From assembly GCF_013167455.1 (NCBI RefSeq), contig NZ_CP038328.1: DNA of 64,000 nucleotides; one strand, 5' to 3'. Position numbers: made by a program. Shown here in pieces: positions 30,001 through 33,000 of this stretch. The stretch's first letter is position 1; every line of letters begins with the position of its first letter. The stretch comes from Escherichia coli O157:H7. GTDB taxonomy: Bacteria > Pseudomonadota > Gammaproteobacteria > Enterobacterales > Enterobacteriaceae.

Positions 30001-33000
30001 ACTCAGATGAGCATGTTTGGTGGTGACAGTGAGCAACTGCACGCCCTTATCGACCGCCTTGATGACATCCCTGATGATGTTCTCAAAAAGAACTGGCCGC
30101 GGACCCTGTCAGAACTGGTTGAAGTCACCGGCGCAGAACTTCAGCGTCAGGGGATTGAGCCGGTACTGGCCGGTAAACTGGCACGCAAGGTGGCTGCGGC
30201 TCAGGCAGCCTATATGGGCGGACGGGGTTATTACCTGCCGGTCGGGGAATCTCTCTTTGCCGAGCTGCGAAACAATGAGATATTTTCGCGCTGGGACCGG
30301 GGCGAGAAAATTGAATCCCTTCGCCGCCATTACCGGATGTCAGAAACCCAGATTTATACCGTCATACGCGAACAGCGCCGTCTGCATCTGGCAAGAACGC
30401 AACCGCCACTTTTCTGATATTCCGCAAAGCCTGCCGCCTCTCCTTCACCGTTACGCTGACTCAGAGAACATCATGAGACAGCGTAACAATGCCAAAACTC
30501 CCCGCACCACTGCGTAAAAAGCTGATTGCCCTTGTTCTGGCCGGTGCCGGGACGTTCACGATTGCCACGCATTACACCGGTTACTGGGAAGGGAAAGAAA
30601 ACTCCACGTATATCGATCCCACCGGTACACCCACCATCTGTTACGGCCATACCGGCCCGGATGTGAAACCGGGTATGACCCTGACAGATGAAGAATGCCT
30701 GGAACTACTGGAAAAGGACATGAAATGGGCCTTTGCGGCCATTGATCGGCGTGTTCAGGTGCCGCTTACCCGTGGTCAGACGGTGGCGCTGGCTTCGTGG
30801 ATCTTCTGGGCCGGTGAAACGAACTTTCGCAACTCCACGCTTCTGCGCCTGATCAATGCCGGGCAGATGCCCGCGTCCTGTAAGCAGTATATCCGCTGGA
30901 TTTATTCAAAGGGGGTGAAACTCCCCGGCCTTGAGGCCCGCCGTTCGGCGGATGAATGGTTATGTCGCTACGACTTGCCGAAAGTCTGAACCGCTTCTGG
31001 CGACCGCTCATGATAGCGCTGCTGTGTGCGGTACTGCTGTTACGGGGTGTCCTGTGGCTGCGGTGAATAATGCCTTACCGGCCCTGATTGCCGGGGCGTG
31101 CATGGCGGCGCTGGGGATTATCGCTGTACTGGTTGCCGCTATATGGGGAATGCACCAGAAGACGCAGCGCCTTGAAGACAATAATCAGGTGCTTGTGCGT
31201 GAGCGGGATGAGGCGCGTCAGGTGCTGGCAAATCAGCAGCACACCCTGCAACTCATTTCACAAATCAGTGAGGCGGCCACGAATGAAAAACAACAGAACA
31301 TTCAGCACAGCGAGGGGCAGCAGAGCGTTGTCCGCCGGTCGCTGGCGGCAGTGCCTGCGGCCTCTGCCCCTGTTCCTGATGATGTGGCTGATCGGGTGCG
31401 CCGGGCCGTCTGTGAAATACGTGCCTGTGAAGCCGGTGCCGATCCCCGCTGAATGGCTGGCTGACTGCCTGGTCCCTCCTGCGCCGGAGCCGTTCACGTT
31501 TGGGGCATCGGTCACTTACAACCTGCAACTGCTGGCGGTGATCAAGAACTGCAACGTGGACAAGGCCAGTATTCGTCGTCTGGAGGCGCGGCGACAACAT
31601 GAATTTACTGATATGGCCGGAACGCCTGCTGTTCCGGCAGGAAAGACGAAGTAAGGAAAAAGGTATGGATGATTCAGATCGTGCTCAGGCTGTGATGGAG
31701 CGGGGATCAGAACGCGCCCTTTGTAACCGGCTGACACGTAAGCGCCGGGCAATGGATGCTCCGGGCAGACGTGTCTGCGCGGACTGTGGCGGAGAGATCC
31801 CCGCCGCACGTCTTGTTGCTGTGCCGGATGCCATCCGTTGTGTGAACTGCCAGAACATCATGGAGGCCCGTCATGTGGGTCAGCATCGTTAAAGATTATG
31901 TTGTGCCGATCCTTTCGGCGACGGCAACCGCTGGCGGGATATTCATGGCGCTGATGCGCAAAACGTTTGTCCCCCGCGAGGCCTTTGAAAAACTCTCCGA
32001 CCGCGTTGAGAAGGTGGAAACCCGCCTGTCGTCACTGCCGACAGAAGCCGAGGTCAACCGTCTGAATGTGGAAATCGTGACCCTGCGGGGTGAACTGAAA
32101 ACCACGAACGCCACGCTCCGCTCTGTCTCCTATCAGAACGAACTGCTGCTGGAGCAGGCGGTAAGGAAAAAAACACAATGAGTGATTTCATTACTGAAGA
32201 TCAGCGTCTTGTCATTCTGCGGTCGCTGGCGGATTACAACGGCGAACTGGGTGAATCCGTGCTCCAGGACTGTCTGGATGATTACGGTCACCGCGTGTCC
32301 CGCGACACCGTTCATACTCATATTGCCTGGCTTGCCGAGCAGGGGCTGGTGCGTAAGCGCACGCTCGTTAATGGTTATTTCATCGCTGAACTGACCGGCC
32401 GGGGTCAGGATGTGGCGGAAGGCCGCGCCACCGTTCCGGGTGTGAAGAAACCACGCGCAAGGGGGTAACGATGGATAAGCCAACGCGTGGCCGTGTACGC
32501 AAGGTGGACTTGCTCCCCGACAGCATCCGTAAGCCACTGCTGGAAATGCTGCGTGAAAAACGTCTGACGCAGGTCCAGATACGCGAGGAAATCAACCGTC
32601 TGATCCGTGAGGCGGGCCTGCCGGAAGAGCAGCAGCTTTCACCGGCGGCCATCAGCCGGGAAGCCTCCCGTAATGAGCTGATTGCCCGTAACCTGCGTGA
32701 TTTACGCGAGCAGACAAAAGCCATGATGGCCGAACTGGGGGACAAGCCAACCGGTGAAACCACTGCATTGATCCTGGAGATGTCCCGCGCCCTGATGTAC
32801 CGCCGTCTGCGTGCCGCGACCGAATCCCTGAACAGTGACAGCGACGTGGATATGCGTCTTATTAAGGACATCCTCCTGTCAGCACAGCGTGCGGAAAGTG
32901 CCGCCGAGCGCAGCATTAAGCGTGAAAAAGAAATCAGGGCTGCATTTGCTGAAGAGATGGCAAACGCCGTCACCGACGAGCTGCGCGGCGTGGACGGGAT

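What the first reader, a model, noticed from the sequence alone, without database searches (positions are those of the whole stretch)
30489..32181. Holin-less lysis cassette: SAR endolysin, overlapped spanin pair and a small membrane protein
The endolysin has a signal-anchor-release N-terminus immediately followed by the E-x8-D-x5-T catalytic triad. It is followed by an i-spanin with an N-terminal TM helix and an o-spanin lipoprotein (lipobox LIGC) encoded in a second frame that extends beyond the i-spanin stop, and then by a TraR-like zinc finger and a 102-aa membrane protein. No class I/II holin-like ORF (two or three TM helices with a charged C-terminus) is adjacent. This resembles the Mu arrangement, where a releasin rather than a holin was proposed, and the 102-aa protein is a candidate for that role.
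Basis: partly seen in the sequence, partly recalled or inferred. Interest (0 to 1): 0.35.

Follow-up and report, generated by a model that had tools for sequence, protein, structure and literature searches.

The report
Mu-type holin-less lysis cassette (prophage Sp18)
This is the cell-bursting gene set of a known Mu-like prophage of E. coli O157 (Sp18 type), built like phage Mu's published holin-less "releasin" system, so it is largely ordinary; the one new detail is a conserved, almost never annotated 34-36-residue membrane-peptide gene between the lysozyme and the spanin genes.

Summary
Window 30489-32181 encodes a SAR-type GH24 endolysin, an overlapped i-/o-spanin pair, a TraR/DksA zinc-finger protein and a 102-aa membrane protein. 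The region is 99-100% identical to the Mu-like prophage Sp18 lineage of E. coli O157:H7, found in 230 of 5426 complete E. coli genomes. It matches phage Mu genes 21-28 gene for gene.

The 102-aa protein is a full-length DUF2730 protein (PF10805, E 7e-20) and is 34% identical to Mu gp25. Chamblee et al. 2022 showed that gp25 is the "releasin" that frees Mu's SAR endolysin in place of a holin. This is an uncharacterised member of a known kind.

Corrections and additions:
- The i-spanin starts at GTG 31054, not the annotated 31024.
- The o-spanin starts at ATG 31283.
- A conserved 34-36-aa single-TMD ORF (30956/30962-31066) sits between the endolysin and the i-spanin. Mu lacks it and it has no detectable relatives elsewhere.
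- The Sp18 releasin has Tyr where 14 of 15 aligned homologues have His.
- This prophage copy has lost its right end (mom 3' part and attR).

No holin family match was found. A two-TMD 61-aa early-region ORF cannot be excluded by sequence alone.

The parts
29992..30417 (+). Mor/C-family transcription activator. It is closer to the Mu late activator C than to Mor, and is the only Mor/C homologue annotated in this prophage.
   Evidence: PF08765, E 3e-32. 39% identity to Mu C (E 4e-35) against 27% to Mor (E 3e-14). Same position as Mu gene 21.
30418..30488 (+). Intergenic region upstream of the endolysin; putative C-dependent late promoter, equivalent to Mu Plys. A -10-like TACGCT lies at 30452-30457. 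This is inferred, not shown.
   Evidence: In the alignment with the annotated Mu Plys region and five relatives, the columns giving TA..CT at this position are invariant. There is no sigma-70 consensus promoter here, which fits an activator-dependent promoter.
30489..30989 (+). SAR (signal-anchor-release) endolysin, a GH24 muramidase of 166 aa. Cytoplasmic N-terminus M1-K11 (K3, R9, K10, K11); SAR helix about L12-G31; catalytic E34/D43/T49.
   Evidence: PF00959, E 6e-37. 39% identity to Mu gp22. PDB 3HDE, E 1e-24, aligned from residue 5. Hydropathy and composition. pN/pS 0.17 against C. braakii.
30956..31066 (+). Rarely annotated small ORF of 36 aa from ATG 30956, or more likely 34 aa from ATG 30962: M(VM)SLRLAESLNRFWRPLMIALLCAVLLLRGVLWLR. 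It has one TMD. It overlaps the last 28-34 nt of the endolysin gene and the first 13 nt of the i-spanin gene. Function unknown.
   Evidence: Intact with conserved length in 26 of 27 unique Sp18-like sequences (fused in-frame to the endolysin in L029) and in relatives from Citrobacter, Serratia and metagenomes. pN/pS is 0.24-0.62 in its own frame against 2.7-5.8 in the annotated i-spanin-extension frame. The overlapped endolysin Leu codon is TTA/CTA wherever the ORF exists and CTG where it does not. There is no Pfam, PHROG or NCBIfam hit. Only one related cluster was found among 1.84e9 representative proteins. It is sometimes called 'Uncharacterised protein' in Shigella sonnei records.
31054..31452 (+). 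i-spanin (Rz/LysB-like), 132 aa from GTG 31054. N-terminal TMD about residues 8-32, then a helical periplasmic domain. PGAP's start at 31024 is probably too far upstream.
   Evidence: PHROG 214, E 8e-33. 27% identity to Mu gp23. The start is homologous to an ATG in Citrobacter-type relatives. The 132-aa form is on record, e.g. AMW48320.1. Upstream of 31054 this frame evolves with pN/pS above 2.6.
31283..31654 (+). o-spanin (Rz1/LysC-like outer-membrane lipoprotein), 123 aa. Lipobox L36-I37-G38-C39 with Ala at +2; Pro-rich mature part. It overlaps the i-spanin by 170 nt and extends 202 nt beyond it ('overlapped' architecture). PGAP's start at 31412 lacks the signal peptide.
   Evidence: PF23793 LysC, E 5e-16. 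PHROG 3001, E 8e-42. 42% identity to Mu gp23.1. GAGG lies 9 nt upstream of ATG 31283. The start is conserved in C. braakii.
31665..31892 (+). TraR/DksA-family C4 zinc-finger protein, 75 aa, in the position of Mu gp24. It is a conserved upstream neighbour of DUF2730 in Mu-like phages. Its role in lysis is unknown and probably nil.
   Evidence: PF01258, E 8e-12. TIGR02419, 77.8 bits against a cut-off of 59.7. PHROG 54, E 9e-20. The same neighbour is seen in Shewanella MuM16-2, Klebsiella Kp4866-3, L048, L049, L052 and L053. Mu gp24 keeps CxxC...CxxC but has no Pfam hit.
31873..32181 (+). DUF2730 protein, a homologue of the Mu gp25 releasin, 102 aa. Short N-terminus outside, TMD about Y9-M28, an R29-K30 junction, and a 74-aa helical cytoplasmic domain.
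   Evidence: PF10805, E 7e-20, covering profile positions 3-101 of 102. 34% identity to gp25, E 5e-18. PHROG 736, E 9e-32. Hydropathy and charges. AlphaFold model with helices 2-30, 35-54 and 58-101, mean pLDDT 71.6. pN/pS 0.16.

Best explanation
The region is the late-operon lysis cassette of a Mu-like transposable prophage of the Sp18 lineage of E. coli O157:H7. It most likely works as phage Mu's does.

1. A C-like activator turns on a late promoter upstream of the endolysin gene. (Inferred.)
2. The endolysin is exported by Sec but stays tethered and inactive in the inner membrane through its weakly hydrophobic N-terminal SAR helix. Basic residues on the cytoplasmic side (R9, K10, K11) lock it in place. 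(Inferred from sequence and from Mu gp22 and R21.)
3. The DUF2730 protein is anchored by one N-terminal TMD, with a helical domain in the cytoplasm. It promotes escape of the SAR helix from the bilayer, and this, rather than a holin, sets the start of wall degradation. (Inferred by homology to Mu gp25. The molecular mechanism is unknown even for Mu.)
4. Once the wall is degraded, the i-spanin/o-spanin complex disrupts the outer membrane. (Inferred by homology.)

What is shown here: the identity, order, integrity and purifying selection of the genes, and the absence of any recognisable holin family.

The TraR-like protein is a conserved neighbour with no demonstrated lysis role. A conserved 34-36-aa single-TMD peptide gene, absent from Mu, lies between the endolysin and i-spanin genes. 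Its role is unknown.
For: - Lineage: 98-100% DNA identity to Sp18-type prophages, including two records labelled 'inserted Bacteriophage Mu-like phage' and Sakai 'prophage Sp18, Mu-like phage'.
- Synteny: gene-for-gene match with Mu genes 21-28 as annotated in AF083977.
- Pairwise homology to Mu: gp22 39%, gp23 27%, gp23.1 42%, gp25 34%.
- DUF2730 match: stronger and more complete than Mu gp25's own (71.4 against 50.4 bits).
- SAR features and basic N-terminus.
- Releasin family hallmarks listed by Chamblee et al. are all present. These are an N-terminal TMD, an R-K junction, a position within five genes downstream of the endolysin, and a transposable-phage context with transposase, GemA, Mor-family and portal genes.
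- Selection: strong purifying selection on the endolysin and releasin, pN/pS 0.16-0.17.
- TMD inventory: the only + strand ORFs with a convincing TMD in the prophage are the i-spanin, the releasin, the 36-aa ORF, a 61-aa early ORF and a DUF1378 cargo ORF; the 98-aa early ORF at 29120-29416 has a weaker one. None of these matches a holin family.
- Activity in Sakai: Sp18 was predicted intact, scored '+' for lysis, and its DNA is packaged (PMC2669165).
Against: - There is no functional test; everything about mechanism is transferred from Mu.
- The Sp18 releasin carries Tyr87 where 14 of 15 aligned homologues, from Mu to Shewanella, have His. Its cytoplasmic domain has no His at all, so its activity could differ.
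- DUF2730 proteins also accompany soluble, non-SAR endolysins in other Mu-like phages (PMC9239132). The family's role may therefore be broader than SAR release.
- Two small membrane proteins of unknown function could supply a holin-like activity: the 34-36-aa ORF inside the cassette and the two-TMD 61-aa early ORF.
- A signal-peptidase site (A18-G19-A20) cannot be excluded without a dedicated predictor or an experiment.
- This particular copy has lost mom 3' and attR, so it probably cannot complete a lytic cycle.
Confidence: 0.85

Rival explanations
1. The cassette is not truly holin-less. A small membrane protein provides the membrane-depolarising or timing function that releases the SAR endolysin, and the DUF2730 protein is auxiliary. 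The candidates are the conserved 34-36-aa single-TMD peptide at 30956/30962-31066 and the two-TMD 61-aa ORF at 28384-28569.
For: - The small ORF is conserved and shows a coding-type substitution pattern.
- It sits inside the late lysis cassette, overlapping both neighbouring genes.
- The 61-aa ORF has two strong TMDs and a short basic C-terminus, the formal class II topology.
- There is a precedent for extra small membrane proteins needed for lysis: Lcc6 of LambdaSo.
Against: - Neither ORF matches any holin family.
- Known holins, apart from T4-type class III, have at least two TMDs; the cassette peptide has one.
- The 61-aa ORF lies in the early operon, upstream of gemA and of a terminator-like hairpin. 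It has no counterpart in the relatives L047 and L048. It is frameshifted in a strain whose lysis region (window 30400-32200) is 100% identical.
- Mu and L049 lack the small ORF yet keep the endolysin-spanin-DUF2730 set.
- In Mu, the analogous small membrane proteins gp19 and gp20 were shown not to be holins (PMC9239132).
Confidence: 0.1
2. The SAR endolysin releases spontaneously, or is a cleaved secreted enzyme. The DUF2730 protein of this lineage has a different conserved role linked to the neighbouring TraR-like, gp26-like and terminase genes, so calling it a 'releasin' does not apply here.
For: - DUF2730 lies directly next to TraR-like, gp26-like and gp27 genes in Mu-like phages whose endolysins are soluble.
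- The H87Y change sits at a near-invariant position.
- L049 has only R9 (RGS instead of RKK) before the SAR helix yet keeps DUF2730.
Against: - The protein belongs to the same sequence type as Mu gp25 (34% identity over the full length), for which loss blocks lysis.
- It is paired with a Mu-type SAR muramidase that carries a basic cluster directly before the helix. That feature was shown to make gp22 releasin-dependent.
Confidence: 0.05

Closest known systems
Phage Mu lysis system: gp22 SAR endolysin, gp23/gp23.1 spanins, gp24, gp25 releasin (Chamblee et al. 2022, mBio, PMC9239132; GenBank AF083977)
   Same: - Same gene order downstream of a C-type activator and upstream of gp26/gp27/terminase.
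[quoted passage not shown]
- No holin family member.
- Transposable-phage context.
   Different: - Sequence identity is only 27-42%.
- The cytoplasmic N-terminus of the endolysin is longer (11 residues, R-K-K directly before the helix, against K6-K7-x-K9 in Mu), and the SAR helix has fewer Gly.
- The gp24 position holds a bona fide TraR/DksA zinc finger.
- An extra 34-36-aa TMD ORF lies between the endolysin and the i-spanin, whereas in Mu gene 23 starts 17 nt before the lys stop.
- There are no gp18/19/20 middle genes and only one Mor/C homologue.
- The releasin has Tyr at the otherwise conserved His.
Prophage Sp18 of E. coli O157:H7 Sakai (NC_002695.2 5040971-5079729; Asadulghani et al. 2009, PMC2669165)
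   Same: The lysis region is 99.4% identical and the releasin protein is identical. Overall genome organisation is the same.
   Different: - The window copy sits in ycjO rather than sorM.
- It has a different immunity region (19852-21328).
- It lacks the last ~820 bp (mom 3' and attR) together with 201 bp of ycjO.
Phage 21 R21 and DLP12 RrrD SAR endolysins (PDB 3HDE, 3HDF, 4ZPU)
   Same: These are the closest solved relatives (E 1e-24). The alignment includes the N-terminal SAR segment.
   Different: From my own knowledge, those enzymes are controlled by pinholins. No pinholin is present here.
P2-type LysB/LysC and lambda Rz/Rz1 two-component spanins
   Same: Matches to the LysC Pfam family and the Rz-like PHROGs, a lipobox, and a TMD plus helical periplasmic domain.
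   Different: The architecture here is overlapped (as in Mu), not embedded (as in lambda, from my own knowledge).
Small accessory membrane proteins of lysis regions: Mu gp20 (39 aa, one TMD) and LambdaSo Lcc6
   Same: The small ORF has a similar size to gp20 and, like both, a single-pass topology.
   Different: There is no sequence similarity. Mu gp20 is a middle gene not needed for lysis. Lcc6 is encoded elsewhere in the LambdaSo genome and has a 43-aa cytoplasmic tail. These are analogies only.

Membership tests
DUF2730 / Mu gp25 releasin family (type I) | Full-length match to Pfam PF10805, including the N-terminal TMD | tested here: met
   E 7e-20, 71.4 bits against a cut-off of 24.9; protein residues 6-97 on profile positions 3-101 of 102.
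DUF2730 / Mu gp25 releasin family (type I) | Significant sequence similarity to Mu gp25 itself | tested here: met
   BLASTP 34% identity over 93 residues, E 5e-18. tblastn hits Mu, D108 and SfMu at 1e-9.
DUF2730 / Mu gp25 releasin family (type I) | Single N-terminal TMD with N-out/C-in topology and a twin Arg or Arg-Lys at the membrane-cytoplasm junction | tested here: met
   The best 19-residue window is residues 10-28 (KD 1.80), followed by R29-K30. AlphaFold places helix 2-30 before two cytoplasmic helices. Topology is a prediction from the positive-inside rule only.
DUF2730 / Mu gp25 releasin family (type I) | Gene within five genes downstream of the endolysin, in a transposable phage (transposase, GemA, Mor, portal) | tested here: met
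   It is the fourth annotated gene after the endolysin, or the fifth counting the small ORF. Mu transposase, GemA, Mor-family and DUF935 portal genes are in the same prophage.
DUF2730 / Mu gp25 releasin family (type I) | Required for release of the cognate SAR endolysin; not lethal alone and not triggered by energy poisons | not testable with these tools
   Needs genetics and expression assays as in PMC9239132.
DUF2730 / Mu gp25 releasin family (type I) | Conserved His in the C-terminal helix (column 87 of alignment A4). This is a conserved position seen here, not a published criterion. | tested here: not met
   His in 14 of 15 aligned homologues, Tyr in the window and Sakai allele. Significance unknown.
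SAR endolysin | Muralytic catalytic domain with E-x8-D-x5-T | tested here: met
   PF00959, E 6e-37. E34, D43 and T49 read from the translation.
SAR endolysin | N-terminal, charge-free, weakly hydrophobic TMD rich in Gly/Ala/Ser/Thr, preceded by basic residues | tested here: met
   L12-G31 has 11 of 20 Ala/Gly/Thr; KD19 is 1.39 against 2.6 for the i-spanin TMD. K3, R9, K10 and K11 lie upstream.
SAR endolysin | Not cleaved by signal peptidase; released by membrane depolarisation, a pinholin or a releasin | not testable with these tools
   An A18-G19-A20 motif exists. Homology to R21 and gp22 over the SAR segment favours non-cleavage.
Two-component spanin (overlapped type) | [quoted passage not shown] | tested here: met
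   PHROG 214 8e-33, PHROG 3001 8e-42, PF23793 5e-16. Lipobox LIGC then A. Coordinates 31054-31452 and 31283-31654.
TraR/DksA C4 zinc finger | Match above the curated cut-off, with four Cys | tested here: met
   TIGR02419, 77.8 bits against a cut-off of 59.7. PF01258, 45.4 bits against 24.9.
Holin (class I/II/III, pinholin), considered for the 36-aa ORF, the 61-aa ORF at 28384-28569, the 98-aa ORF at 29120-29416 and DUF1378 at 56574-56756 | Match to a known holin family | tested here: not met
   No holin family in Pfam, PHROGs or NCBIfam for any of them.
Holin (class I/II/III, pinholin), considered for the same four ORFs | At least two TMDs with a charged C-terminus, encoded on the late transcript | tested here: not met
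   - 36-aa ORF: late position but one TMD.
- 61-aa ORF: two TMDs but in the early operon.
- 98-aa ORF: one weak TMD, early operon.
- DUF1378: one TMD, in the right-end cargo region.
Holin (class I/II/III, pinholin), considered for the same four ORFs | Lethal hole formation that can be triggered by energy poisons | not testable with these tools
   Requires expression assays.

The most novel reading that the evidence does not exclude
The conserved 34-36-aa single-TMD peptide gene wedged between the SAR endolysin and the i-spanin is a real, previously unrecognised fifth component of this lysis system. It is present in Sp18-like prophages of Escherichia/Shigella, Citrobacter and Serratia, and absent from Mu. 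It could be a membrane-embedded timer or modulator of SAR-endolysin release, acting either as a mini depolarising peptide or as an anchor-stabilising anti-releasin. If so, 'holin-less' releasin systems would come in at least two regulatory designs.
Probability: 0.2. Interest if true: 0.5.

Novelty: new member of a known kind. Interest (0 to 1): 0.2.

Why it matters
The main finding does not change the picture. It shows that the widespread Sp18 family of Mu-like prophages in pathogenic E. coli carries the Mu-type releasin lysis system described in 2022, rather than a holin-based one.

Its modest value lies in natural variants that could help resolve how releasins work, which is still unknown:
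- a releasin allele lacking the otherwise conserved His (Tyr87), in a prophage reported to package its DNA;
- endolysin N-termini that vary from R-K-K to R-G-S among close relatives;
- an extra conserved membrane-peptide gene that is present or absent between otherwise collinear cassettes.

It also corrects recurrent annotation errors: the i-spanin labelled 'endopeptidase' with an over-long start, the o-spanin truncated before its signal peptide, and the small ORF left uncalled.

Tried and rejected
1. Small ORF as a tandem duplicate of the i-spanin TMD segment. Local DNA and protein alignments scored no better than shuffles. Rejected.
2. Programmed -1 frameshift fusing the endolysin to the small ORF. 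The overlap has no X_XXY_YYZ slippery site (sequence reading). The one fused example (L029) is explained by an extra A in an A-run. Not supported.
3. Distant relatives of the small peptide.
   - tblastn against 50,697 phage records found only the two Stx-phage records that carry this prophage.
   - A profile search of 1.84e9 representative proteins found one true cluster plus two repetitive false hits.
4. Mu gp19/gp20 as counterparts of the small ORF. No similarity.
5. DUF1378 (56574-56756) as a hidden holin. It belongs to a cargo block with a SASA/DUF6645 esterase and DUF826 at the prophage right end and has one TMD. No evidence.
6. ORF 20164-20424 with two TMDs. It is antisense to the repressor gene, so spurious.
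7. My first TMD scan used PGAP coordinates from another strain. It was off by 1 nt upstream of 28569 and by about 51 nt downstream of 53214. It was replaced by an annotation-free six-frame scan.
8. Genome-contig scan with the endolysin. It returned only one locus, C. braakii. IMG/VR and the look-up of encoding contigs supplied the diversity instead.
9. tblastn of the i-spanin against phages. It found nothing beyond the same two records.
10. L041 and L050, with endolysins 38-48% identical, are non-Mu phages. L050 has a Pfam-annotated holin directly upstream of the endolysin, and L041 has a TMD-containing ORF there. Used only as contrast.
11. PGAP's 'tRNA-OTHER' inside the prophage of another strain. 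ARAGORN and Rfam find nothing in the window.
12. PDB search for the releasin. No relative.
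Full report
**What is there**

- Window 30489-30989 encodes a 166-aa GH24 lysozyme (PF00959, E 6e-37). E34-x8-D43-x5-T49 is read directly from the translation.
- Its N-terminus is MPKLPAPLRKK followed by LIALVLAGAGTFTIATHYTG. In that 20-residue stretch, 11 residues are Ala, Gly or Thr. The best 19-residue Kyte-Doolittle mean is 1.39, compared with 2.64 for the i-spanin TMD next door.
- The closest solved structures are 3HDE and 4ZPU (RrrD), at E about 1e-24. The alignment starts at residue 5, so it includes the hydrophobic N-terminal segment. 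From my own knowledge, 3HDE is the full-length phage 21 R21 SAR endolysin.
- Downstream lie an Rz-like i-spanin (PHROG 214, E 8e-33) and a LysC/Rz1-like o-spanin (PF23793, E 5e-16; PHROG 3001, E 8e-42). The o-spanin is in another frame, has the lipobox LIGC followed by Ala, and ends 202 nt after the i-spanin stop.
- Next comes a TraR/DksA zinc finger (TIGR02419, 77.8 bits against a cut-off of 59.7).
- Last is the 102-aa protein at 31873-32181, a full-length DUF2730 protein (PF10805, E 7e-20).

**Where it comes from**

- The 3.2 kb around the cassette is 98-99% identical to two Stx-phage records in which this stretch is labelled 'inserted Bacteriophage Mu-like phage'.
- The 1.8-kb cassette is present at 80-100% identity in 230 of 5426 complete E. 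coli genomes. One of them is O157:H7 Sakai, where it lies in 'prophage Sp18, Mu-like phage'.
- The window's prophage runs from about 19762 to 57850 and interrupts ycjO.
- Asadulghani et al. 2009 (PMC2669165) predicted Sakai Sp18 to be intact, scored its lysis function '+', and found its DNA packaged.

**Comparison with Mu**

The current GenBank record of Mu (AF083977) annotates these genes in order:
- C;
- Plys;
- gp22 'SAR endolysin';
- gp23 'i-spanin';
- gp23.1 'o-spanin';
- gp24;
- gp25 'releasin';
- gp26 wHTH;
- gp27 small terminase;
- gp28 large terminase.

The window has the same order. It runs Mor/C-family activator, endolysin, i-spanin, o-spanin, small Cys4 protein, DUF2730, VpaChn25_0724/gp26-like protein, Phage_Mu_Gp27, large terminase. 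The activator is 39% identical to C and 27% to Mor.

Pairwise identities to the Mu proteins are 39%, 27%, 42% and 34% for gp22, gp23, gp23.1 and gp25.

Chamblee et al. 2022 (PMC9239132) established four points:
- Mu has no holin.
- gp22 is a SAR endolysin whose release needs gp25.
- That dependence is conferred by the basic residues K6 and K7 just before the SAR helix.
- gp25 defines DUF2730, a family found in Mu-like phages. Members lie within five genes downstream of the endolysin and have an N-out/C-in TMD and a twin-Arg or Arg-Lys junction.

The window protein has all the sequence hallmarks:
- a TMD at about residues 9-28;
- R29-K30 at the junction;
- a 74-residue helical cytoplasmic domain;
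- a position as the fourth or fifth gene after the endolysin.

The endolysin has R9-K10-K11 directly before its helix. Endolysin and releasin are under strong purifying selection, with pN/pS 0.17 and 0.16 against the C. braakii relative.

**Is it really holin-less?**

An annotation-free six-frame scan for TMDs across the prophage leaves five credible + strand candidates with a strong TMD:
- the i-spanin;
- the releasin;
- a 36-aa ORF inside the cassette;
- a 61-aa two-TMD ORF at 28384-28569;
- a DUF1378 ORF at 56574-56756.

A sixth ORF, 29120-29416, has only a weak TMD (KD19 1.43).

None of the non-spanin, non-releasin candidates hits a holin family in Pfam, PHROGs or NCBIfam. By contrast, the precomputed Pfam annotation lists a holin family on the gene immediately upstream of a 48%-identical endolysin in a non-Mu contig.

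The 61-aa ORF has a formal class II topology. Several points count against it as a holin:
- It lies in the early operon, upstream of gemA and of a terminator-like hairpin at 29927-29950.
- It has no counterpart in the more distant relatives L047 and L048.
- It is frameshifted in a strain whose lysis region is 100% identical to the window.

DUF1378 is part of a cargo block at the prophage right end, together with a SASA/DUF6645 esterase and DUF826.

**The new detail: a small ORF**

Between the endolysin stop (30989) and the i-spanin lies an ORF in a third frame, 30956-31066. Its product is MVMSLRLAESLNRFWRPLMIALLCAVLLLRGVLWLR. RefSeq does not annotate it. Instead, PGAP extends the i-spanin upstream to GTG 31024.

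Evidence that it is a real gene:

1. Conservation of the frame. It is intact, at 36-37 codons, in 26 of the 27 unique Sp18-like sequences from IMG/VR and E. coli; in the 27th (L029) it is fused in-frame to the endolysin. It is also intact in relatives whose endolysins are as little as 67% identical, including C. braakii, a Serratia contig and metagenome contigs.
2. Substitution pattern. Over the 20 codons that overlap no other gene, pN/pS is 0.24-0.62 in this frame. In the PGAP i-spanin-extension frame it is 2.7-5.8, and the third frame has stops. The i-spanin itself gives 0.60. Fisher tests on single pairs are marginal (p = 0.05, 0.009, 0.17) because the ORF is so short.
3. Start-codon retention. 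Its third codon, ATG 30962, is created by the endolysin's Leu codon in W-L-C. That codon is TTA or CTA in every lineage that has the ORF, with a single TTG exception that gives GTG. These are the two rare A-ending Leu codons. In L049, the one close relative that lacks the ORF, the codon is the common CTG.
4. Conserved residues. M1, M3, R6, R16, L23, V26, R30, G31, L33, W34 and L35 are invariant, and W15 and P17 nearly so.

One caveat applies to point 4. The conserved R-G-V-L-W-L tail coincides with the i-spanin's Shine-Dalgarno-like GGGG and its start codon, so part of that conservation may be at the nucleotide level.

The same comparisons place the i-spanin start at GTG 31054, which is an ATG in the Citrobacter group. 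The resulting 132-aa form is on record in some O157 annotations.

The peptide has no family match and essentially no relatives outside this clade. It is occasionally called 'Uncharacterised protein' in Shigella sonnei records. Mu and L049 lack it; their i-spanin genes overlap the endolysin stop. I put the probability that it is a real gene at about 0.75. Its function is unknown.

**Other points bearing on mechanism**

- In a 15-sequence DUF2730 alignment spanning 30-100% identity, a His in the long C-terminal helix is conserved in all sequences except the window/Sakai allele, which has Tyr87. The window protein's cytoplasmic domain has no His at all.
  - If the Sp18 releasin is active, this argues against the Ser/His/Asp protease idea that was floated, and already doubted, for gp25.
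  - If it is not active, the Sp18 allele may be attenuated.
- The TraR-like gene is a constant upstream neighbour of DUF2730 in Mu-like phages, even those with soluble endolysins. This fits a module not specific to SAR release and leaves open a broader role for DUF2730.
- The region upstream of the endolysin aligns with Mu's annotated C-dependent Plys and shares a TA..CT -10-like element (30452-30457). There is no sigma-70 consensus promoter. This is suggestive only.

**State of this copy**

- Homology to Sakai Sp18 stops at window 57851, which is Sakai locus position 38410, in the com/mom overlap. Host ycjO sequence resumes at that same position.
- About 820 bp of the prophage right end (mom 3' part and attR) is missing, together with 201 bp of ycjO.
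- None of the 5426 complete E. coli genomes has this junction.
- This copy is therefore probably unable to transpose or replicate, although its lysis genes are intact.

**Verdict**

The cassette is an uncharacterised member of the already described Mu-type releasin lysis system, located in a well-known prophage family. Interest is low (0.2). The only lead with some novelty is the conserved small membrane-peptide gene, along with the natural releasin and endolysin variants, which could serve as handles on the still unknown releasin mechanism.

Noticed in passing
window 30956-31066 (+): Conserved ORF of 36 aa (34 aa from ATG 30962) with one TMD, between the endolysin and i-spanin genes and overlapping both. 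It is almost never annotated. It shows a coding-type substitution pattern, and the overlapped endolysin Leu codon is kept as TTA/CTA. It is absent from Mu and from relative L049.
   Followed up: yes
window 31024-31053 and 31283-31411: RefSeq/PGAP gene models look wrong. The i-spanin ('endopeptidase') start at GTG 31024 lies in sequence that evolves as non-coding in that frame; the likely start is GTG 31054. The o-spanin ('LysC') is called from 31412, after the lipobox, and so lacks its signal peptide; the likely start is ATG 31283.
   Followed up: yes
window 32131-32133 (codon 87 of the DUF2730 gene): The Sp18/window releasin allele has Tyr where 14 of 15 aligned homologues (Mu, Serratia, Salmonella, Klebsiella and Shewanella phages) have His. 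Its cytoplasmic domain contains no His.
   Followed up: partly
window 57850/57851, with flanks 18472-19770 and 57851-60200: The prophage is inserted in host ycjO, but its right end is deleted. About 820 bp of Sp18 (mom 3' part and attR) and 201 bp of ycjO are missing. This junction occurs in none of the 5426 complete E. coli genomes searched.
   Followed up: yes
window 19852-21328: The immunity region (repressor on the - strand at 20118-20729, ner-like gene at 20886-21152, start of the transposase) has no nucleotide match (blastn, E 1e-20) to Sakai Sp18 or to strain ECP19-798, although the ends and the rest of the prophage are 97-99% identical. It is probably a heteroimmune variant.
   Followed up: partly
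window 54379-57037 (+): A cargo block lies between the DNA invertase and com. It comprises a 682-aa SASA + DUF6645 esterase, DUF1378 (60 aa, one TMD) and DUF826. From memory, not tested here, it resembles the nanS-p region of lambdoid Stx prophages.
   Followed up: partly
window 29413-30488: There is only one Mor/C-family regulator (C-like) and no counterpart of Mu's middle genes 18-20. A terminator-like hairpin with a T-run at 29927-29950 separates gemA from the C-like gene. How the C-like gene is switched on without a Mor is unclear.
   Followed up: partly
window 28384-28569 (+): A 61-aa ORF with two strong TMDs and a short basic C-terminus (class II holin-like topology) lies in the early operon. 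It is intact here and in Sakai (ECs_5772) but frameshifted in strain ECP19-798. It hits PHROG 19804 (unknown function), and L047 and L048 have no counterpart.
   Followed up: partly
L029:2968-3076 (IMG/VR contig 2526164665_000023): In one relative, the translation implies a single-base insertion (an extra A in the AAA run just before the endolysin stop). It fuses the endolysin in frame to the small ORF (…WLCRYDLPKSLNRFWRPLMIALL…). This could be a sequencing error or a natural C-terminally anchored variant.
   Followed up: no
L049:2501-3013 compared with window 30489-30989: The one close relative without the small ORF also has R-G-S instead of R-K-K before the SAR helix. With a single case, no inference is possible.
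   Followed up: no
window about 37620-37700 (-): PGAP annotates a 'tRNA-OTHER' at the corresponding place in strain ECP19-798. ARAGORN and Rfam find nothing in the window's prophage.
   Followed up: yes
window 57900-59192 (-): The host ycjN gene (ABC transporter substrate-binding protein) is split into two ORFs. RefSeq marks it as a pseudogene with an internal stop in O157:H7 strain PV15-279.
   Followed up: no
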